A stretch of 64,000 nucleotides of DNA from Vulcanimicrobiota bacterium (GTDB lineage Bacteria; Vulcanimicrobiota; Vulcanimicrobiia; Vulcanimicrobiales; Vulcanimicrobiaceae), in the NCBI GenBank assembly GCA_963714015.1, contig OY970223.1, positions 2,432,001 through 2,496,000 of the forward strand. The letters are read 5' to 3'. Under the pieces are notes generated by a model. The model had not been told where the DNA came from. It ran no database searches and was given only the letters and a program-made list of their open reading frames with translations. Positions 1-11,595 of the stretch are shown here, one piece after another; positions within the stretch are counted from its first letter, which is position 1; each line of letters starts with the position of its first letter. A program made the translations under genes and the position numbers.

Positions 1-486
1 CGCAAAGCCGTTGCCGAAGCGCAGCGCCTGCCCCGCTGTTATATCGACGGCATCGCTGGTCTCCGGATGCTCGGCATCCAGTCCGGTGTAGACCTGATCT
101 GCTTCGGAGGGAACGAGATCGTACTCTCGCACCGGATTGCTGCGCTGCAGCACATACGTTCGCGCGAGAATTGCTTGAGCTTGCAGCGCAGCCGCAGGCC
201 AGGAGTGCGGCATCTCGCGCGGCACGACGCTGTAGAGATACTGCTCGAGCGGGACGAGATTGACGATCTGCCCATCCGAGGTGCTCGAATAACTTCCGCG
301 GTAACGCCGCCCTTCGAATAGGATTGTCGAAGCGTCCAAGGTCCGAGCGCTGCCCCTTCCCAGAAGGACGCGCAGCGACTGCGCCTGCGAGACGGTCGCG
401 GGATCGTCCTGATCGGGCGCGTTTCGCAGTCCGTGCGGCACAATTCCGGCCGCAGCAATCGCTCTTACGAATTCGCTGCGGTTCAC
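1..486 (-). CDS. SpoIID/LytB domain protein (3' end runs off the window; not in the ORF track)
   Basis: Manual translation from GTG at 486 (GTGA overlap with ruvB stop): [14 protein letters not shown]...YRG...[38 protein letters not shown]...[14 protein letters not shown], the SpoIID signature; ruvB-spoIID adjacency is common. Confidence 0.85.
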
Positions 487-1572
487 AGCAGCCGTTCCTG
501 TGCGGGCGGCGGTGCCGCGGTTGCTTTCAAATGACTATATGCACGCGGTGTCGCTTTTCGTCCGCTCGCCGTTCGAACGACGAAGCCTTGCTTGAGCAGA
601 TACGGCTCCACGACGTCTTCCAGCGTCTCCCCGTCTTCCGTCAACGTTGCCGCAATCGCGCCTATTCCGACCGGGCCGCCGCGGTATTGCTCGACGATCG
701 TGCGCAAAAACGCGCGATCGAGCCGGTCCAGTCCGAGTTCGTCCACGCCCTTCGCGACGCAGTGCCTCGTCCGCAACTTCGCGCGTGATCCGCCCCTCCG
801 CGCGCACCTCTGCAAAGTCGCGCACCCGGCGGAGCAGCCTATTGGCGATTCGCGGCGTTCCGCGGCTGCGCGCAGCGATGGTGTGCGCGCCTTCCGCTTC
901 AATCGGAACGTTCAGCACGCTGCACGAGCGGCCGACGATCTGCTCCAATTCTTCCACGCTGTAGTAGTCCAAGTGATGCATGATTCCGAAGCGCTCGCGC
1001 AGCGGCGCGGAAAGCATTCCCGCGCGCGTCGTGGCGCCTACGAGCGTGAAACGTTTCAGCGGCAACTTGATCGTCTTCGCGTAAGCGCCCCGGTCGACGA
1101 CGAAGTCGATCTGAAAATCCTCCATCGCGGGATAGAGGAACTCTTCGACCACGCGGCCCAAGCGGTGAATCTCATCGATGAAGAGTACGTCGCCCTCTTC
1201 CAGAGACGTGAGGATTCCGACGAGATCTTTGGGTTTCTCCAGCGTCGGGCCGCTCGTCGGGCGAAGCGCTCTGCCCATGTCGCGCGCGATCAGCGCTGCG
1301 AGCGTCGTCTTGCCCAAGCCCGGCGGCCCGTAAAATAGCACGTGTTCGAGCGGTTCGTCCCGTCTGCGCGCCGCGTCGATGGCAATCTTCAGATTCTCGA
1401 CGACGGTCGTTTGACCGACGTATTCGTCGAACGAACGGGGACGCAGGCTTGCGCCGTAGACTTCGTCTTCCAGCGTGTCGTCGGGAGAGACCAAACCGCG
1501 CAGCGCGCTCTCGGAATCGAACGGCTGCACATCCTCGGGCCCGAGCAGGCGCCGCCGCGCGTCGTCGCTCAT
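483..1572 (-). CDS. ruvB: Holliday junction branch migration helicase RuvB (frameshift near 755)
   Basis: [43 protein letters not shown]-terminus GVDELGLD...GGPVG...EPYL in ORF 483..902. Confidence 0.97.
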
Positions 1573-2192: not shown

Positions 2193-2695
2193 CAGCGGCC
2201 GTTCCGGCTTGCGTACGCGAGCGCCAGCGCCAGCGCGTCGGAGACGTCGTTGGGCTGCGGGCGTTTGCGAAGACCCAGCAGCTGCGTCACCATGCGATTG
2301 ACCTGTTCTTTTCGCGCCGCGCCGGACCCGACGAGCGCGCGCTTCACCAGCGAATGTGCCAGTGTATGAACGGCAACGCCGTGCTGCGCGCCGGCTAAAC
2401 AGAGAACGCCGCGCGCGTGCCCCATCATAATTGCGGTGCGCGGGTTCTTGTACGTCGTGTAGAGTTCTTCCACGACCATGATCGCGGGACGGTGTGCCGT
2501 CACGACCGCCGTCAGGCCCGAATGGAGTTCGCGCAGCCGTTCTTCCAGCGTCCCGCGGGTGCGCGGAGCAATGATTCCCGCTTCAACGAGCCGCGCTCGA
2601 CCCGCCTGGAGTTCGACGACGCCGTAACCGGTGACGCGTAGGCCGGGATCGACTCCAAGGATTCTGCCGTTTTGTGCTTTTCCGTTCGCCGTCAC
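2192..2695 (-). CDS. ruvC: Crossover junction endodeoxyribonuclease RuvC
   Basis: ILGVDPGLRVTGYGVV, VEE, G.G.A.KEQV, D.SDALA. Confidence 0.96.
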   Translation of the reverse strand: MTANGKAQNGRILGVDPGLRVTGYGVVELQAGRARLVEAGIIAPRTRGTLEERLRELHSGLTAVVTAHRPAIMVVEELYTTYKNPRTAIMMGHARGVLCLAGAQHGVAVHTLAHSLVKRALVGSGAARKEQVNRMVTQLLGLRKRPQPNDVSDALALALAYASRNGR

Positions 2696-4761
2696 GGTTG
2701 CGCCGGCTGCGAGCTCGGACTGTTGTAGTAAATGTTGACCGGCGTTCCGAGCCGCGCTTCGGTTCCGACGTCCGGTTCCGTGCGAACGACGTTGCCGTCC
2801 GCGCCTTCGGCCGTCGGCACGAGATTGCCGATGGTGTAGCCGTGATTCAGCAGCACCTTCTTCGCGTCGTCGATCGACAGGCCGTTCGTATCGGGAATGG
2901 CGTTGTAGACGGAGTAGACGAGCTTGACGGTCGCGCCTTTTTCGGCCGGCGTATCGGCCGGAGGCGATTCGCTGATCACTTGCCCGCTGTCATTCGCCGA
3001 CGCTTGCGGATTGACGGCATACTCGGTATCGACGGTAAAACCGGCCTGCTGCAGCGCTTGCGTAGCCGTTACGAAATCGTCGCCGATGATATTCGGTACT
3101 TGTGCCAAGCCGCCGCCTGCACTGACCACCACGTTGACGACCCCCGATGCGGGAATGGTCCGGCCGGGCTGCGGATCTTGGGTCGCGATAACGTCCGGCG
3201 GAACGTTGCTCATGGTCGCCTTGGTTTGCGCAATCGTGAACCCTTCGCGACCGGCAATCGCCGTGGCGTCCTCCAGGGTCTTGCCGACAAGATTCGGGAC
3301 TTGAATCGGCGCCGGCCCGTTAGAGACAACGAGCGTGACGCTCGATCCTTCCCGTACTTTGGAGCCGGGAGCGGGCGACTCGCTCACCACGGTGTCTTTG
3401 GGCGATCGATCGTACCTGCGCGTTACCTTGACCTGCAGGTGCTGAGCGCTCAGATCTCGCTGCGCATCCCCCAGCGTGTAGCTGGTAAAATCGTTGAGCT
3501 CGAGGCTCGGCAATCCGGTGCTTACGTCGAGTACGACCGTGCCGCCCTTTTCGAGCCGGCTGCCGGGAGGCGGATTCTGTTGCGCGACGCGATTGTCGGG
3601 CACGGTCGAACTGGCGCCGCGGACGATTTTGTAGTTCAGTCCGGCGTTCACTATTGTTTCCTGCGCCTGTGCGTCGGTCATACCTACGTAATTGTCCAAG
3701 GTGATCCGAGGCTGTGAAGGCGGCCGCGTCGCAAAGTACCCCGCCGCCGCCGCAATGATCGCGGCGATCACCAGCAGCACGAAGATCGGTCCCATCGATC
3801 GCTGCGGCCGCTCTTCTTCGTCGACGATCGCCGTGGGGGTATCCGGCATGCGCGAGGGACGGGGCGGCGGAGCCGGTATTGCCTGCATCGTCTGCGTCGC
3901 CGAATCGTCTTGTTGCGCGTAAGCCGCCACGGTCGGGCGCTCGCGCGCTTCGCGCAGCGCCGAAGCCACTTCACTGGCCGAGTGAAACCGATGTTCCGGC
4001 TGCTTTTGCAGTAGACGGTTCACGATTGCGGCAAGCGCCGGACTCACGCCGCTCTCGGCCGGATCCATCACGGGAACCGGATCGGAGACGTGCTTGAGCG
4101 CGACGGTTACGGGCGACTCTCCGGTGTACGGCAACCTTCCGGCCAGCATTTGGTACAGCACGACGCCGATGCTGTACAGATCGGACGTTTCGTGAAGTTC
4201 CAGGCCCTGCGCTTGCTCGGGCGAGAGGTAGTAGACGCTGCCCATTACAAGACCCGGGCGCGTCATCGCCATCGTCTGCTGCGACATCGCCCGCGCGATG
4301 CCGAAATCGGAGAGCTTGACTACGTCGTCCTTGGTTATCAGAATGTTGGCCGGCTTGATATCGCGGTGCAGCAGTCCTTGCCGGTGCGCGTACGCCAAAC
4401 CGTTGCAGATTTGCGCGGCGTAGTCGATCGCTACCGGTTCGGGGAGCTTGCCGTCTGCGGCGATGATCTCGGCGAGCGATGGGCCGTCCACCAGTTCCAT
4501 GACGATGTAGTACGTTTCACCCTCCCGTCCCACGTCGTACGTGTTGACGATGTTGGGATGGGAGAGCCGGGCGGCGGACTCCGCTTCCTGATAGAAGCGC
4601 CGAACGAACTCTTCGTCCGAGGCGTATTGCGCGCGCAGCACCTTGATCGCGACGCGCCGGCGCAGCAGCGTATCGGTTCCGCAATACACCGTCGCCATAC
4701 CGCCCTCGCCAAGCTTGTTATCGAGCCGGTAGCGGTTGTTGAAAATATGCTGCTCGATCAT
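2692..4761 (-). CDS. pknB: Stk1/PknB family Ser/Thr kinase with TM helix and about 5 PASTA repeats
   Basis: GEGGMATVY, VAIK, HRDIKPAN, DFGIA, YLSPEQ; TM IFVLLVIAAIIAAAAGYF; repeated VPNLVG-type PASTA units. Confidence 0.95.
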   Translation of the reverse strand: MIEQHIFNNRYRLDNKLGEGGMATVYCGTDTLLRRRVAIKVLRAQYASDEEFVRRFYQEAESAARLSHPNIVNTYDVGREGETYYIVMELVDGPSLAEIIAADGKLPEPVAIDYAAQICNGLAYAHRQGLLHRDIKPANILITKDDVVKLSDFGIARAMSQQTMAMTRPGLVMGSVYYLSPEQAQGLELHETSDLYSIGVVLYQMLAGRLPYTGESPVTVALKHVSDPVPVMDPAESGVSPALAAIVNRLLQKQPEHRFHSASEVASALREARERPTVAAYAQQDDSATQTMQAIPAPPPRPSRMPDTPTAIVDEEERPQRSMGPIFVLLVIAAIIAAAAGYFATRPPSQPRITLDNYVGMTDAQAQETIVNAGLNYKIVRGASSTVPDNRVAQQNPPPGSRLEKGGTVVLDVSTGLPSLELNDFTSYTLGDAQRDLSAQHLQVKVTRRYDRSPKDTVVSESPAPGSKVREGSSVTLVVSNGPAPIQVPNLVGKTLEDATAIAGREGFTIAQTKATMSNVPPDVIATQDPQPGRTIPASGVVNVVVSAGGGLAQVPNIIGDDFVTATQALQQAGFTVDTEYAVNPQASANDSGQVISESPPADTPAEKGATVKLVYSVYNAIPDTNGLSIDDAKKVLLNHGYTIGNLVPTAEGADGNVVRTEPDVGTEARLGTPVNIYYNSPSSQPAQP

Positions 4762-5143
4762 TTGAAAAGGCGCTCCGGCCTAGCCTGCGCGCCCCCCAAC
4801 TGCGTTGGGGCCCCCACGACTTCATGGCGCGTAATGCCGGTCGCAAACGATCGCCTCCCCGAGGGCGCCGCCAAAATTTCGGTCATCCGTTTGAAAAGGC
4901 GCTCCGGCCTAGCCTGCGCGCCCCCCAACTGCGTTGGGGCCCCCACGACTTCATGGCGCGTAATGCCGGTCGCAAACGATCGCCTCCCCGAGGGCGCCGC
5001 CAAAATTTCGTCATCCTTTTGAAAAGGCGCTCCGGCCTAGCCTGCGCGCCCCCCAACTGCGTTGGGGCCCCCACGACCTCATGGCGCGTAATGCCGGTCG
5101 CAAACGATCGCCTCCCCGAGGGCGCCGCCAAAATTTCGCTCAT
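4758..5143 (-). CDS. Putative repeat-encoded protein, 3 x 43 aa (one 1-bp indel near 5010)
   Basis: ATG 5143 overlaps the PBP stop (ATGA) and TGA 4758 overlaps the pknB ATG (ATGA); unit M[ST]EILAAPSGRRSFATGITRHEVVGAPTQLGGAQARPERLFKR. Confidence 0.45.
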
Positions 5144-5146
5144 CCT
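4761..5146. repeat. Tandem repeat, 3 copies of about 129 bp, with internal hairpins
   Basis: Units starting tttgaaaaggcgctccggcc at 4761, 4890 and 5018; hairpin ccccaac-tgc-gttgggg; junction palindrome cctttt-g-aaaagg. Confidence 0.97.
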
Positions 5147-6546
5147 TTTACGTCTTCCAAGGCCGTCCTTAGCACGTCTTTGGCGATCGGAAGGGCAACG
5201 GCGGCGCCGTAACCGGCGTTTTCGACGACGACCGCAACCGCGACCCGAGGATGCTCCGCGGGCGCAAAGCAAACGAACCAGGAATGGGCGGCGCCAAGCG
5301 GATTGGTAGCCGTTCCCGTTTTTCCCGCCACCGTTATGCCGGGCAATCGCGCGCCCGTTCCGGTGCCGTATTGCACCACTGCAATCATCATCTTCTTCAC
5401 GTTCTCGGCCGTATCCGCCGACGCGGGATTCGCAAGCTCGCTTGCCCCGTAGCTGCTGGAAGCGCCGCCCGGCCAAACCACTTTGCGAACTACGTACGGA
5501 CGCGGCTCGGTTCCGTCATCGGCGATAGTCGAGGCGATCAGCGCCATCTGCAGCGGGGTCATCAAGAGCGCCCCTTGTCCAAAACCCATTTGGGCAAGCT
5601 CGCCCGGTACGATAGAAGATTGGGCAGGGACACGATCCCGTGAGGCAGGCAACTGGAAATCGAGGGATTGACCGATGCCCCAGCGATCCATGTACCGGTA
5701 AAACGTGTCCGTGCCCATCTTCAGCGCGATCTGTCCGAAATCGACATTGCTCGAGAGGGCAAAAGCCCCCGTAATATCCTGCGTTCCGGTCGCCTCGCTC
5801 TCGTCATCGTGCAGCGTAAAGTCCCCGATGACGTAATACCCGGGGTCGTACCACGTAGAATCCATGCTGACCGCGCCCGAGTCGAGCGCCGCCGTTGCCG
5901 TGAAGATCTTGAACGTCGATCCGGGCGGATAGAGTCCGTTGATGCTGCGGTTGAGCAGCGGACTGCTTTGATTTTGCGTGAGCGAGGGAAACTCCGCGAC
6001 CAGATCGTTGGGGTCGAAGCTCGGCACACTGGCCATGGCCAGGACTTCGCCGCTGCGCGGATCCAGCACGACGCCGGCGCCGCGCGCGTGCTCCGACAGA
6101 TCGGAGAACAGCTCGTTTTGAATTGCCGGGTCGATGGTCGTTACCACGTCGGCGCCTTGCGCGACGGAGCTTTTCCCCGAAAATGCCTCCACTATCTGAC
6201 TGAGCTGCGCGATCAGGCTGCCGGTTGTGTCCGGCGGCGTGAGCGCACTGTCATAAGCGTCTTCCAGGCCGCTCGTGCCGTAGCGCGCCGAAACGTAACC
6301 GACGGTTTGCGCGAGCGCCGGTCCGAGCGGGTACTCCCGTCGATCGCCGACCGTTTGCGCGAGAACCGTACCGTCACTTGCGAGAATTCGGCCGCGATGC
6401 GCGCTCATCAACGCGTGACGCGGATTATAGGGCTTGGCCGCAATGGATGGACCTTCGATCACCTGCACGTAAAACTGACGCACGCACAAAATCGCGAAGA
6501 GCACCGCAAAAAGGATCTTCAAATGTTCCGCGGTTCGGGAGCTCAT
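5140..6546 (-). CDS. Class B penicillin-binding protein (PbpA-like transpeptidase)
   Basis: RGRILASDG, PGSTFK (SxxK), SSN (SxN), KTGT; N-terminal TM helix. Confidence 0.93.
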   Translation of the reverse strand: MSSRTAEHLKILFAVLFAILCVRQFYVQVIEGPSIAAKPYNPRHALMSAHRGRILASDGTVLAQTVGDRREYPLGPALAQTVGYVSARYGTSGLEDAYDSALTPPDTTGSLIAQLSQIVEAFSGKSSVAQGADVVTTIDPAIQNELFSDLSEHARGAGVVLDPRSGEVLAMASVPSFDPNDLVAEFPSLTQNQSSPLLNRSINGLYPPGSTFKIFTATAALDSGAVSMDSTWYDPGYYVIGDFTLHDDESEATGTQDITGAFALSSNVDFGQIALKMGTDTFYRYMDRWGIGQSLDFQLPASRDRVPAQSSIVPGELAQMGFGQGALLMTPLQMALIASTIADDGTEPRPYVVRKVVWPGGASSSYGASELANPASADTAENVKKMMIAVVQYGTGTGARLPGITVAGKTGTATNPLGAAHSWFVCFAPAEHPRVAVAVVVENAGYGAAVALPIAKDVLRTALEDVKG

Positions 6547-7271
6547 TTTTCACGCAGGAGCGTGTAACCATCGGCGGTCTTGACCGCAAGGTACGCTCGT
6601 TCGGGCTCGGCGCGCAATATGACGTTGAGCGCATCTCGCGCGACGTCTTCCTTGACGCCGCCGATAACGAGAACCGCGTCCACGCCGGCTTCGTCTAAAA
6701 GAGGCAACGCGACGTACGCAGCCGCCGGGAGTGTATCAAAGTGCCGGTCCTCATACGGTCCGGCGTGCCAGGGCCCCCGCTTGCCGAAGACTTGCTTGTG
6801 ATAATCCCACGCGCACAGCTGACGCTCTTTCCACACGAAGTGATCGCGAACGCAAAGCCGGCGGCACGCACCGCACTGCACGAGAACCTCCGGCGGGTGC
6901 GCGAGCGCCTCGGCGATCTCTTCGGGCAAATCTTCGACGTTCAGTACGCTTGCGTCGTCTAAACTCTCAGGCGGCTCGACGTGCCAGTTGATTCGCGCAA
7001 GCAACTCGACGTCGCGGGCGGGCGCAACGAAGGCCCGCTCGTCGTCGAACGGAAACGTCGCGTCGATCCATTCCAGCAAGTTTGCAAGCGCGACGGTTAC
7101 GTTTTGCCGGCCGCTTCCGGCGACCGTTCCGATCGGCGTCTGAGCGAGCGGAACCAGGTGCGCCGTTACGCTTTCGGCGTCGGAGCGAAGGCTCGTGATG
7201 AAGGCTAGCGTGCTGGCGTTGCCGCCCAAAACGAAAGCGCGCGGAGCGCCTAAGTCCTGGCTTGCGCGCAT
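6543..7271 (-). CDS. Hypothetical protein with Cys/His cluster (possible Zn-binding)
   Basis: Probable start ATG 7271 (MRASQDLG); CGACRRLC...CAWDYH; stop overlaps the PBP ATG. Confidence 0.7.
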   Translation of the reverse strand: MRASQDLGAPRAFVLGGNASTLAFITSLRSDAESVTAHLVPLAQTPIGTVAGSGRQNVTVALANLLEWIDATFPFDDERAFVAPARDVELLARINWHVEPPESLDDASVLNVEDLPEEIAEALAHPPEVLVQCGACRRLCVRDHFVWKERQLCAWDYHKQVFGKRGPWHAGPYEDRHFDTLPAAAYVALPLLDEAGVDAVLVIGGVKEDVARDALNVILRAEPERAYLAVKTADGYTLLREK

Positions 7272-10200
7272 CGGTACTCTTGCAGGGTCCGCGGAGGGCC
7301 GGCCTCCACTTCCAACGCTTCCGCCAGAGCGCGGGCGGTGTCCAGACTGGTCAAACACGCGATATTCGCTTCGACTGCCGCCCGCCGAATCTTGTAGTTG
7401 TCGGAGATCTCGCGCGGGCCTTGCGCGTCATTGACGACCAAGTCGACGGCGCGCTGCGCAATCAAATCGAGCACGTGCGGCGAACCGGCGGCGATTTTAT
7501 TGATGCGTTCGCACGGAATGCCCGCGGACCGCAGCACCTCCTGCGTACCGGACGTGGCTGTCAAGCGATGGCCGAGGCCGACGTAGCGGCGCAACACCGG
7601 GATCGCTGCCTGCTTCTCTTCATCTGCGATCGAAACCAGGATCCGGCCGCCGCTGCTGGGCAGCCGGACGCCGGCGCCGATGAAACCTTTGCGCAGAGCG
7701 CCGCCGAACGTTTCATCGATGCCGAGGACTTCGCCGGTGGACTTCATCTCGGGTCCCAAGATCGTTTCAACGCCGCGCATCTTCGCAAAAGAGAATACGG
7801 GGATCTTCACGACGACGAACGGCGCGCGCGGCGTAAGGCCCGTGCCGTACTGCATCTGAGCGAGTTTTTCACCGAGCGCAATGCGGGTGGCCGCGGCAAC
7901 CAGATTGACCCCCGTGGCTTTTTGAATGATCGGTACCGTGCGGCTCGCGCGCGGGTTTGCCTCGATGATGTAGAGCCGGCCTTCGTGGATCACAAATTGA
8001 ATGTTGATCAGGCCGCGAATGTTCAGCTCGCGCGCAATCGAAGTGGTGACCTCGACGATCCGCTGCTCCATCTCAGGCGCGACGGTCTGGGTCGGATAGA
8101 CGCTGATCGAGTCTCCCGAATGAATCCCCGCGCGCTCGATGTGCTCGAACACGCCGGGAATCAGAATATCGGTTCCGTCGAACGCCGCGTCGACTTCAAC
8201 TTCCAAACCCCGCAAATATTTGTCGACCAGCAGCGGCGCGTCCGGCAGAATCGGCGGGGCGGATTCGGCATACGAGGCCAGCTGGCCCTCGTTGTAAACG
8301 ATTTCCATGCCGCGACCGCCGAGAACGTATGACGGCCTAACCAGCACGGGGAACCCGAGCTCGCGCGCGATAACGCGCGCCTCACGAAACGATCGGGCTG
8401 CTTTTCCCTGTGGACGCGCAACTCCCAGCCGATGAAGCGCCGCGTCGAATTTTTCCCGGTCCTCCGCCATGTCGAGACTGCGCCGGTCGCTTCCGACGAT
8501 GCGCACGTCGCGCCGCGCAAGCTCGTCAGCCAGATTGATCGCGGTTTGGCCGCCGAACGCGAGCATCACGCCGCGCGCCTGCGTCGCCCGGTACGCCGCT
8601 TCCACTTCGTCTGCACCCGGGGGCTCGAAGACCAGCACGTCCGAAATATCGAAGTCCGTCGAGACCGTTTCAGGATTGTTATTGACGACGACCGGCGAGC
8701 AACCCGCCTCGCGAAGCGCCCAGGCGGCGTGCACGCACGAATAATCGAACTCGATGCCCTGGCCGATGCGGATGGGCCCGCTGCCCACGACGACGACGGC
8801 TTCCTTCGACGGCCGGCGCATCTCGTTGCTCTCGTTGCGCGCGATATAGTAGTAGGGCGATTTGGCTGGGAACTCGGCCGCAGCGGTGTCTACCATTCGA
8901 AACGCCACGCCGTTGTGCGCATGGGCGCGTCCCGCGACGCCGGCCGAATACCCGTTCTCTAGGGCTTGCAGCGTGTCGGCGTTCGAGGCGCCGGCGCGAA
9001 TGCGTTCTTCCAGGCTTACGAGTTCTTGAACTCGTAGAGCCAGAAAGGATCGATTGCCGAAAGCTCCACGATCCGCTGGATCGGAATGCCCCTGCGCAGC
9101 CCTTCCGCTACCGCAAAAAGCCGCTCGTGATTGGGTCTTGCAATGACGGCTTCCAATTCCGCGTCGCTCCACTCGGCAAGCGCGCTTCCCGTCAGCGTTT
9201 CGCGTTTGAGATCCAGGCCGCGTACCGCTTTCATCAACGCAGCGCCAAAGGTGCGGCCGATGCCCATGGCCTCGCCCGTAGACTTCATCTGCGTTCCGAG
9301 CGTGGTGTCGGCAAGCGGAAATTTGTCGAACGGCCATCGCGGAATCTTGACGACGACGTAGTCCAGCGTCGGTTCGTAGGCGGCTTTCGTCACGCCCGTA
9401 ACGGGATTCGGAATTTCGTCCAGCGTCTGCCCGAGTGCGATTCGCGTGCTGATTTTGGCGATCGGATAACCGGTGGCTTTGCTTGCCAGCGCGGAACTGC
9501 GAGAGACGCGGGGGTTCACTTCGATGATCCGGTATTCGCTTCGCTCCGGATGCAGCGCGAACTGGATGTTGCAGCCGCCTTCGACGCGCAGCGCGCGAAT
9601 AACGTTCAAACTCGAACTGCGCAGCATCTGGTATTCCAAATCCGAGAGCGTCTGCGATGGCGCTACGACGATCGAATCTCCGGTGTGAACGCCGACGGGA
9701 TCGATGTTCTCCATGTTGCAGACGATGATGCAGTTGTTCGCCGCATCGCGCAGCACTTCGTACTCGATCTCTTTCCAGCCTAAAAGGGAAGTTTCCAACA
9801 GGACTTGATGAATGAGACTCGCCGCGAGTCCCGTTTCCAGCGTTTGAAGCAGTTCCCGCTCGTCATAGACGATGCCGCCGCCTGTTCCACCTAAAGTGTA
9901 CGCGGGGCGGACGACGAGCGGATAGCCGTGATCGGCGGCAAAAGCCAGACCTTCGTCGCTTCGCGTAACGATTGCGCTTTGCGGAACCGGCTCGCCGATC
10001 TCGATCATCTTAGCCTTGAAGCGCTCGCGGTCTTCAGCGAGCTTGATCGTCTCGACCGGAGTCCCCAGCAGCTGCACGCCGTAACGCTCGAGGATGCCCG
10101 CCTCGTGCAACTCGACCGCTAAATTGAGTCCGGTCTGGCCGCCGAGCGTCGGCAGCAGCGCGTCGGGCCGCTCCCGCTCGATGATGCCCTCGAGCGAAGC

Positions 10201-10401
10201 CGTCGTCAGCGGCTCCAGATACACGGCCTCCGCGATCTCGGGATCCGTCATGATCGTCGCCGGGTTCGAGTTGACAAGGATGACGCGGTGACCTTCCTCC
10301 CGCAAGGCACGGCACGCTTGCACGCCGGCATAATCAAATTCTGCGGCTTGGCCTATGACGATGGGGCCCGAGCCGATGACCAGTACGTTGCGGGGGGGCA
10401 T
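7250..10401 (-). CDS. carB: Carbamoyl-phosphate synthase large subunit (frameshift near 9025)
   Basis: [33 protein letters not shown]; second half [24 protein letters not shown]-terminal MGS domain. Confidence 0.96.
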
Positions 10402-10447: not shown

Positions 10448-10614
10448 GACTGCCCGGCATCTAGCCCCGCGGCGGATGATGCCGGGTCACGGGGATATCC
10501 GATATTTTTCGCCCAGCCAGGATGGCTGTTTTACAACTCGTTCTGCGGAAAATGCAGTGAAGCAGCGATTTGACACGACGTCAAATCGCGAGCGGCCCTC
10601 GTGACCCGGCGGTC
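10448..10614 (+). ncRNA. Candidate structured non-coding RNA (identity unknown)
   Basis: Long-range stem 10481-10494/10597-10610, stem 10525-10534/10557-10566, perfect 10-bp hairpin 10565-10589; G-U pairs favour the + strand. Confidence 0.3.
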
Positions 10615-10619
10615 AACCG

Positions 10620-11595
10620 TTAAGAACGGATCGCCGGTGCCGCGCCGTTCGGAACCGCGATGCTGCGGTACCACTCCACGGTGATGCGCAGGCCGTCTTC
10701 CAAACTGACGATCGGCTCGTACCCGAATGCCTCGCGGGCGGCGGTGATGTCTGCGAGCGAGTCGCGGACGTCGCCGAGGCGATCGCGATCGTAGTGCGGC
10801 GTTCCGGTGAAGCCCGTGATCGGCTTGAGCATTTCGAATAGTTCGTTCAGACTGCGCCGCTCGCCCATAGCCACGTTGAACGTGCGGCCCGCGACTTTTT
10901 CGGACGGTGCCGCAACCGCTTTGAGATTTGCGCTGACGACGTTGTCGACGTACGTGAAATCGCGGCTCTGCTCGCCATCGCCGAAGATAGTCGGCGCCTG
11001 ACCGGCGATCATACCGGTAATGAACTTCGAGAGCACGCCGGAGTATTGACTGCTCGCATCCTGACGCGGGCCGAAGACGTTGAAATAGCGCAGCGAAACC
11101 GTTTCCAATCCGTACACGCAATGAAACGACGCCGCGTAAAGCTCGCCCGTCAACTTCTGAACGGCGTAGGGCGAGAGCGGATTGGCTTTCATCTCTTCCC
11201 GCTTCGGCAGCGTCGCGCGTGTTTCCGTACGCTGAGGAAGACGCCGCATAGATCACGCGGCGAACGCCGGCTTCGCGCGCCGCCAAAAAGACGTTCAACG
11301 TTCCATCGATGTTGGCGCGGTGACTCGTCAGCGGATCGACGACGGACTTCGGCACGGACGGAATCGCCGCCTGATGCAGCACGTAGTCCACGTTCCGGAA
11401 GGCGCGGATCAGCGCGTCGAGATCTTTCAAATCGATCTCTTCGAAGGCGATCGCGTCCCAGTAACCGTCGAGATTCTCGCGCTTGCCGGTCTTGAAATTA
11501 TCGATCGCGCGAACGTCCTCATTGCGCTCGAGCAGGGCGCGGACCAGCGCCGATCCGATGAAGCCGGCCGCGCCGGTCACGAGGTACGTAGCCAT
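10620..11595 (-). CDS. NAD-dependent nucleotide-sugar epimerase/dehydratase, WbpP/GalE-like SDR (frameshift near 11225)
   Basis: TGAAGFIGS, HQAAIPSV, ASSSAYG, SPYAVQK (YxxxK), LRYFNVFGPRQD. Confidence 0.92.

What the first reader, a model, noticed from the sequence alone, without database searches (positions are those of the whole stretch)
4758..5146. 3 x 129-bp repeat forming a translationally coupled mini-ORF between the PBP gene and pknB
Seen: three near-identical units (periods 129 and 128). On the minus strand the array begins with an ATG overlapping the PBP stop and ends with a TGA overlapping the pknB ATG, both as ATGA, so coupling through the operon is kept. One unit is 43 codons. Substitutions between copies are synonymous (GAA/GAG Glu, CGG/AGG Arg) or conservative (Ser/Thr) in that frame. 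Units rebuild the AAAAGGATGA junction found at the PBP end and carry hairpins. Inference: either a selfish palindromic element (REP/MITE or Rickettsia RPE-like) that targets stop-start overlaps without polarity and amplifies in tandem, or a Ser/Thr-containing repeat peptide linked to PknB.
Basis: partly seen in the sequence, partly recalled or inferred. Interest (0 to 1): 0.8.

Follow-up and report, generated by a model that had tools for sequence, protein, structure and literature searches.

The report
Start-codon hairpin repeat relaying ribosomes
The three repeats between the penicillin-binding-protein gene and pknB are copies of a small hairpin-forming DNA element that sits on the start codons of many unrelated genes in one family of soil bacteria and likely lets ribosomes run through it on throw-away reading frames, much as MIRU repeats are reported to do in mycobacteria.

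Summary
The array is real: units of 129/128/129 nt with ATGA at both ends. It is not one mini-ORF. A 1-nt gap in unit 2 gives two chained ORFs (86 and 42 aa), and coupling holds with or without the gap. The unit belongs to a dispersed family: 25 loci in this genome, 20 ending 6-8 nt before a co-oriented start codon, and 72 of 172 genomes of one Vulcanimicrobiota family. Of 29 relatives, 12 have a bare 4-nt pbp-pknB overlap. A relay ORF spans 42 of 55 and 42 of 50 testable junctions (nulls 4-20). All three frames are used, so the PknB-peptide idea fails. Four helices covary. The central loop is often C(GNA)G, a DNA mini-hairpin motif, hinting at single-stranded DNA recognition. No mobiliser was found. 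It works like a MIRU; homology to MIRUs was not tested directly. The scan has noted this family before, in this genome and others. Verdict: new variant of a known kind.

The parts
5140..6546 (-). Penicillin-binding protein gene (upstream gene); its TGA stop is at 5142-5140
   Evidence: ORF; Pfam Transpeptidase and PBP_dimer_2
5140..5143 (-). Left ATGA: PBP stop overlapping the start of relay ORF A; one of two 4-nt direct repeats that flank the array
   Evidence: sequence
5015..5143 (-). Unit 1 (129 nt); family match at 5128-5018
4887..5014 (-). Unit 2 (128 nt); lacks one base near 5010 (real or assembly error, undecided); family match at 5000-4890
4758..4886 (-). Unit 3 (129 nt) and relay ORF B (42 aa), whose stop overlaps the pknB start; family match at 4871-4761
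   Evidence: no Pfam match
4883..5143 (-). Relay ORF A (86 aa as assembled); changes frame in unit 2 and stops on the ATGA that starts ORF B
   Evidence: no Pfam match
5026..5070 (-). Conserved 3' module of unit 1: central hairpin with a C(GCA)G loop, then a terminal hairpin with a 3x3 GNA/GNA internal loop
4898..4942 (-). Conserved 3' module of unit 2
4769..4813 (-). Conserved 3' module of unit 3; the pknB start codon follows 7 nt later
4758..4761 (-). Right ATGA: stop of ORF B overlapping the pknB start codon
   Evidence: sequence
2692..4761 (-). pknB, PASTA-domain Ser/Thr kinase (downstream gene)
   Evidence: ORF; Pfam Pkinase and PASTA

Best explanation
The array is three tandem copies of a non-coding, roughly 115-130-nt hairpin element that is inferred to have inserted at the overlapped pbp-stop/pknB-start and that likely survives there because short reading frames carry ribosomes from the PBP stop to the pknB start. 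Shown: the element family, its position just before co-oriented start codons, empty orthologous sites, four covarying helices, and open relay frames above chance in any of three frames. Inferred, step 1: a single copy inserted at the start codon, leaving ATG(A) at both ends. Inferred, step 2: its terminal hairpin ends 7 nt before the pknB ATG and covers a GGAG, so it would block initiation unless a translating ribosome melts it and reinitiates; selection therefore keeps copies with an open, coupled frame, whatever peptide results. Inferred, step 3: the three copies arose locally by slippage or unequal crossing-over at A-rich microhomology, because the internal junctions copy the last bases of the PBP gene. 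Least certain, about even odds within this explanation: the element is recognised and moved as folded single-stranded DNA of the coding strand by an unidentified enzyme, probably host-encoded or only transiently present.
For: Dispersed family: 42 profile hits in 25 loci of G000 and 47 covariance-model hits. 20 of 25 loci end 6-8 nt before a co-oriented start (19, one read). 67 of 123 GTDB loci and 65 of 124 metagenome loci have the start 5-8 nt after the terminal stem. Empty sites: 12 of 29 relatives have a bare -4 overlap, 14 a short spacer, 2 an element-derived insert, 1 unresolved. Patchiness: 32 of 1236 junction observations in the ribosomal protein operon of 61 genomes, never more than 7 of 58 at one junction. 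Relay ORF in 42 of 55 testable GTDB junctions; 1- or 2-nt deletion nulls give 4 and 7, shuffles 18 +/- 3, max 29 of 1000. In metagenome loci 42 of 50; nulls 10, 7 and 20 +/- 3, max 33 of 500. Frames used 30/8/4 and 26/14/2. Structure: 95% of cells paired, 10 of 20 pairs with two-sided changes, 0 of 500 shuffles reach the covariation score. 5' helix paired in 59 of 63 copies against a null mean of 22. G-T over A-C wobble 18:3 favours the coding strand. C(GNA)G loops in 23 of 83 distinct hairpins (48 of 128 cores) against 1 GNRA and 1 UUCG, 26 of 77 against 2 GNRA, and 2 of 344 other intergenic hairpins. Copies are 97% alike within arrays and 69% between loci.
Against: No mobiliser or gene-bearing parent was found. 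Y1, IS110, reverse transcriptase and TnpB families are not detected in G000, which is 89.6% complete. Y1 occurs in 8 of 201 and RT in 19 of 151 family genomes. None of 15 seed proteins hits the 248 element loci. Copies at different loci are only 69% alike, so recent movement is not shown. Some junctions are filled in several genomes (rplR-rpsE, infA/map-rpmJ), which fits inheritance as well as repeated insertion. 13 of 55 and 8 of 50 junctions have no single relay ORF. 23 of 123 GTDB loci lie antisense to the next gene. Translation and expression were not observed. Copies share ancestry, so loop and relay counts are not independent events, and the GTDB and metagenome sets may overlap. The relay windows were chosen by me after a looser first test (49 of 60; nulls 26, 29 and 32 +/- 3).
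Confidence: 0.75

Rival explanations
1. The element is a domesticated cis-regulatory RNA (a ribosome-recruiting or protein-binding leader) that the host keeps at selected operon junctions to tune the downstream gene.
For: Covarying helices and purine-rich internal loops on the transcribed strand; fixed 5-8 nt distance to the start codon and a GGAG about 10 nt upstream; many targets are core genes.
Against: Downstream genes share no pathway. Occupancy is patchy within genera. Copies occur antisense and in truncated or tandem forms. Loops are DNA-type C(GNA)G rather than GNRA or UUCG. No Rfam match at the element.
Confidence: 0.1
2. The element behaves as described but moves through an RNA intermediate (reverse splicing or template switching into translated mRNA, then reverse transcription).
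For: Strong co-orientation with transcription (96 of 119 GTDB loci with a called downstream gene). Orientation follows genes, not replichores (inferred). One related locus carries a 27-nt duplication of the junction including SD and start.
Against: No RT in G000 and RT in only 19 of 151 family genomes, 0 of 4, 0 of 3 and 1 of 10 in three element-rich genera. Loop types fit DNA better. At most other loci inspected by eye the end duplication is only ATG or ATGA.
Confidence: 0.08
3. The triplication, or the 1-nt gap, is an assembly artefact and the chromosome holds one copy or three intact 129-nt copies.
For: The assembly shows up to 16 apparent frameshifts in 107,720 compared coding bases, about a 5-6% chance of one in 387 nt. 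No reads span the array.
Against: The three units differ at diagnostic positions. 9 of 25 loci in this genome are arrays with their own periods. Tandem arrays occur in other assemblies. This rival touches only copy number and the gap, not the element.
Confidence: 0.05
4. The array encodes a functional Ser/Thr-containing repeat peptide that acts with PknB.
For: The 43-codon unit is open in one frame and its three substitutions are synonymous or conservative. Element inserts recur before pknB in three other genomes (L022, L026, L128).
Against: The frame is broken in unit 2. Relay ORFs use all three frames. The inserts at the L022 and L026 junctions translate into different peptides. Variable positions in the conserved core change amino acids in the main frame (read). 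No Pfam match. 26 of 29 relatives have no recognisable full insert.
Confidence: 0.02

Closest known systems
MIRU, mycobacterial interspersed repetitive units (Supply et al. 1997; original not held; seen only as passages in PMC12548453 and PMC3184786)
   Same: Short intergenic repeat, tens of copies per genome, at start codons in operons; internal ORF whose ends overlap the neighbours; filled and empty sites; 4-nt direct repeats at this locus; GC-rich internal inverted repeats; tandem amplification (MIRU-VNTR, recalled).
   Different: Longer (115-130 nt, variants near 190, against about 40-100 bp). Found in one family of Vulcanimicrobiota. Coupling is not only -4 (16 of 42 at -4, the rest mostly 0 to +3). 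Several exchangeable 5' modules on one 3' module. No terminal inverted repeats seen. Sequence relation to MIRUs was not tested directly.
REP/BIME with TnpA-REP, and IS200/IS605 ends (PMC8266576, passages)
   Same: Imperfect hairpins with conserved mismatches that favour one strand; a conserved short tail after the last hairpin (A at +6 in 113 of 123); non-autonomous and host-resident.
   Different: No GTAG tetranucleotide before the palindrome; no Y1 gene in the genome or beside any copy; position at start codons and relay ORFs are not REP features in the passages read.
Rickettsia palindromic elements (RPE) and other repeats fused in frame to genes (PMC3184786, passage)
   Same: A related three-hairpin form lies in frame inside dxr in L178; some copies extend the upstream protein, for example nuoM in G000.
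   Different: Most copies, including this one, are intergenic and carry separate relay ORFs.
IS900-type IS110 elements that insert between ribosome-binding site and start codon (recalled; the search found no paper)
   Same: Preference for translation start signals.
   Different: No IS110 transposase in G000, and no bridge-RNA-like match to the target was noticed on inspection.

Membership tests
MIRU | Short repeat dispersed at tens of intergenic sites in operons | tested here: met
   25 loci in G000; up to 56 matches of the terminal hairpin pattern in another genome
MIRU | Sits at start codons with an internal ORF coupled to the downstream gene | tested here: met
MIRU | Filled and empty orthologous sites with tetranucleotide direct repeats | tested here: inconclusive
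   Met at this locus (ATGA both sides; 12 of 29 relatives with a bare -4 overlap). At other junctions the shared letters are often only ATG, which may be element-encoded.
MIRU | Length about 40-100 bp | tested here: not met
   115-130 nt core element, 129-nt unit here
MIRU | Sequence homology to mycobacterial MIRU units and presence in Mycobacterium | tested here: inconclusive
   No MIRU sequence was at hand. The model hit 0 of 120 other genomes sampled from the phylum of G303 (titled as an actinobacterium); whether mycobacteria were among them is unknown.
MIRU | Co-transcribed in the polycistronic mRNA | not testable with these tools
   no RNA holder listed
REP/REPIN (TnpA-REP) | Conserved GTAG tetranucleotide before the palindrome | tested here: not met
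   alignment A1 and cores
REP/REPIN (TnpA-REP) | Cognate Y1 (RAYT) gene flanked by the repeats | tested here: not met
   0 in G000. Of 19 Y1 loci from 8 of 201 genomes, none carries the element; one has a weak one-mismatch hit.
MITE (DDE-mobilised) | Terminal inverted repeats shared with a resident IS | tested here: not met
   Left and right ends are not complementary; no element match in the three DDE_Tnp_1 loci of G000.
Known structured RNA (Rfam) | Match to a curated covariance model | tested here: not met
   nothing near a gathering score over the element

The most novel reading that the evidence does not exclude
Start-codon relay elements of the MIRU type are a class of mobile single-stranded DNA structures. 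They are capped by C(GNA)G mini-hairpins, need no transposase of their own, and are cut and joined by a housekeeping enzyme on the exposed coding strand of transcribed operons. This family, with covarying helices and hundreds of copies, would then be the handle for finding how MIRU-like repeats move.
Probability: 0.2. Interest if true: 0.75.

Novelty: new variant of a known kind. Interest (0 to 1): 0.45.

Why it matters
The reviews read describe start-codon insertion with a coupled internal ORF for mycobacterial MIRUs only, and the passages I read name no enzyme that moves them. This family shows the same design in a distant uncultured lineage, with enough divergent copies to measure it. The open frame, not the peptide, is conserved, and the fold carries a DNA mini-hairpin signature. 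That gives a concrete substrate for finding the mobiliser and natural test cases for translational coupling across a strong hairpin. For pknB itself the array is probably a tolerated passenger. Its tandem copy number could serve as a strain marker.

Tried and rejected
Reads: no RNA holder listed; the best DNA holder (X1) has 0.38 of the words and no listed piece spans the array. A locus-specific 32-nt pattern found nothing in metagenome contigs. No match in viral contigs, plasmids or phages. Autonomous parent: 20 left ends without a nearby right end were fetched; they were longer multi-hairpin variants, truncated copies or chance matches, none enclosing a gene. Flanking proteins (57 of 96 downstream and 59 of 116 upstream sent to Pfam at strict E-values) gave housekeeping families or no family, and no mobile-element family. 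A longer form in genus g5 is the module nested in another repeat. Unusual anti-Shine-Dalgarno: my 16S probe found no match in the assembly, so this was not tested. A one-sided G/T mutation zone beside the element (lead from e1-9742956) was not seen: G+T at fourfold sites differed by -0.011 (p 0.24) downstream and -0.006 (p 0.73) upstream over 24 filled junctions; T/(T+C) downstream was slightly lower (p 0.03, one of six tests). Orientation by replichore was rejected by inspection. The first relay test included five mis-called upstream stops and allowed chains and fusions; it was replaced. Literature searches that found no description of this family: (listings only).

Full report
Observation. 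Tandem Repeats Finder gives a 129-nt, three-copy array at 4761-5149. On the minus strand the units are 5143-5015 (129 nt), 5014-4887 (128 nt) and 4886-4758 (129 nt). The flanking genes are a penicillin-binding protein (5140-6546) and a PASTA kinase, pknB (2692-4761). ATGA overlaps both ends as described. The single-ORF reading is wrong as assembled. Unit 2 lacks one base, so the ORF from 5143 shifts frame and ends at 4883 (86 aa) on an internal ATGA, which opens a 42-aa ORF that ends on the pknB start. If the gap is an error there is one 128-aa ORF; coupling holds in both cases. The assembly shows up to 16 apparent frameshifts in 107,720 compared bases, so an error is possible. Reads did not decide it.

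A dispersed family. An iterated profile finds 42 hits in 25 loci of the genome, and a covariance model finds 47 hits. A few further variants lie before gyrA, rplK, rplJ and a dehydrogenase subunit (gene names from my reading of the translations). At 20 of the 25 loci a co-oriented start codon follows the terminal stem by 6-8 nt (19, one read). Two more have it at 0 and 13-16 nt, and three lie among tRNA genes. Downstream genes read as atpA, gyrB, lpxA, prfA, nuoN, fliG, five ribosomal protein genes and others. Nine loci are arrays; copies are 97% alike within arrays and 69% between loci, and 9 of 16 periods are multiples of three. The internal junctions here copy the last bases of the PBP gene, which points to local duplication at A-rich microhomology rather than repeated insertion (inference).

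Range and empty sites. Of 80 listed titles, 67 name Eremiobacterota, Vulcanimicrobiota, WPS-2 or their genera, 8 are unnamed bacteria and 5 name other groups. Within the phylum it matches 72 of 172 genomes of the window's family and 0 of 78 others (the tally includes unpublished G021, G023, G036, G211, G242 and G256, two of them with matches). At the pbp-pknB junction of 29 relatives, 12 have a bare -4 overlap (2 of these from unpublished G021 and G023), 14 a short spacer, 2 an element-derived insert and 1 was unresolved. Both inserts keep a chain of frames to pknB with different peptides. In the ribosomal protein operon of 61 genomes, 32 of 1236 junction observations carry the element, spread over 12 of 21 junctions, with filled and empty neighbours in the same genus.

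The relay test. In 67 of 123 GTDB loci and 65 of 124 distinct metagenome loci the start codon lies 5-8 nt after the terminal stem. I kept junctions with such a start (4-9 nt) and a called same-strand upstream stop 25-200 nt before the core: 55 GTDB and 50 metagenome loci. One ORF runs from the upstream stop to the downstream start in 42 of 55 and 42 of 50. Removing 1 or 2 nt in silico gives 4 and 7, and 10 and 7; shuffling the interior gives 18 +/- 3 and 20 +/- 3. The frames used are 30/8/4 and 26/14/2, so no peptide is conserved. A looser first test gave 49 of 60 against nulls of 26-32. The two sets may share source data. PMC12548453 (passages) reports that coupling is best at -4 to +3 spacing and that translation of the upstream ORF can unfold a hairpin that otherwise blocks the downstream start. 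This is the mechanism I infer here; it was not observed.

Anatomy. Four helices covary in 29 copies from this genome: 95% of cells paired, 10 of 20 pairs with two-sided changes, well above shuffled and slid controls (tandem copies inflate the counts). The terminal stem holds a 3x3 purine loop and is followed by a conserved six-base tail ending in A in 113 of 123 loci. At least four 5' modules join the same 3' module, and one has a sharp left end beginning ATG or ACG. The ends can therefore rebuild a start codon on both sides, with or without a true target duplication; I could not separate these. Wobble pairs (18 G-T against 3 A-C) and folding energies favour the coding strand. The central loop is C(GNA)G in 23 of 83 distinct hairpins, against one GNRA and one UUCG, and in 26 of 77 in the second set. 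Only 2 of 344 other intergenic hairpins of this genome have it. The copies in this array have C(GCA)G. PMC13037366 (abstract start and passages) describes GCGNAGC-type mini-hairpins as extraordinarily stable in DNA, the RNA counterparts as much less stable, and such motifs at single-strand replication signals and the N4 promoter. This supports, but does not prove, recognition as folded single-stranded DNA.

Mobiliser. None was found. G000 has no detected Y1, IS110, RT or TnpB family member (89.6% complete). It has a few DDE_Tnp_1 genes whose surroundings do not match the element. Y1 is in 8 of 201 and RT in 19 of 151 family genomes. No seed of these classes hits 248 element loci, and there is no match in viral, phage or plasmid collections.

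Comparison. It works like a MIRU as summarised in PMC12548453 and PMC3184786 (passages; the 1997 paper is not held). It exceeds the MIRU size range and homology was not shown, so I do not file it as a MIRU. It fails the REP and MITE tests (GTAG, cognate Y1 gene, terminal inverted repeats; PMC8266576 passages) and has no Rfam match. My searches found no paper on this family (listings only; supplements were not read). Earlier notes of this scan describe the same family in this genome and similar designs in other phyla. I reached the MIRU comparison before reading them, and they are not independent support.

Verdict. A real, tandemly amplified copy of a MIRU-like start-codon element, new as a sequence family, with a measured relay signal and a DNA-hairpin signature, but no mobiliser and no expression data. 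New variant of a known kind; interest 0.45.

Noticed in passing
L178 (dxr), L177 (mfd-like gene), L179, L180, L184: A three-hairpin form of the element lies in frame and antisense inside dxr (about 37 extra residues against the G000 protein), apparently in frame inside an mfd-like ORF, and joins nuoE to nuoF in one ORF in L179. In L180 and L184 its last bases supply the GTG start of the next gene.
   Followed up: partly
ribosomal protein operon loci L239-L298: At least two other, apparently unrelated ~100-120-nt hairpin repeat families fill the same junctions (rplW-rplB, rplB-rpsS, rplN-rplX, rplX-rplE) in other genera; several begin with an ATG next to the upstream stop.
   Followed up: no
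G000:C1:1505140-1505480: [quoted passage not shown]
   Followed up: partly
G000:C1:3491206-3492720 and 161007-162378: The upstream gene reads into or through the element: a C-terminal extension of a nuoM-like gene, also seen at the same junction in L160, and another gene that stops on an ATGA inside the element.
   Followed up: partly
G000:C1:1950415-1950575 and 1539724-1539773: Short tandem runs of only the 5' part of the element (30-nt units) or of its leader precede full copies before the fliG-like and sufU-like genes.
   Followed up: no
G000:C1:2500331-2500394 and 2740119-2740284: The three loci not at start codons lie between or beside tRNA genes (Gly/Leu; Arg/Ser); two of them are inverted relative to each other.
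   Followed up: partly
L242 (G050), secY-adk junction: The element is inserted antisense at this junction, yet the antisense strand still gives an open frame from the secY stop to the adk start (read by hand).
   Followed up: partly
window 483-1572, 7250-10401, 10531-11595: A ruvB-like, a carB-like and an NAD-dependent epimerase-like ORF each appear split by a frameshift; probably assembly indels.
   Followed up: no
L174, L175, L176 (genus g5): The 3' module is nested inside another dispersed repeat with long arms, which also occurs many times without it.
   Followed up: partly
L182 and L183 (G142): Two near-identical loci have the 3' module alone upstream of small genes and two membrane proteins that look like a photosynthetic reaction-centre cluster (my reading of the translations, not searched).
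   Followed up: no
G303:C8:792460-797142: The only two model hits among 121 genomes of that phylum lie on one contig near a flagellin gene; possibly a mis-binned contig.
   Followed up: no
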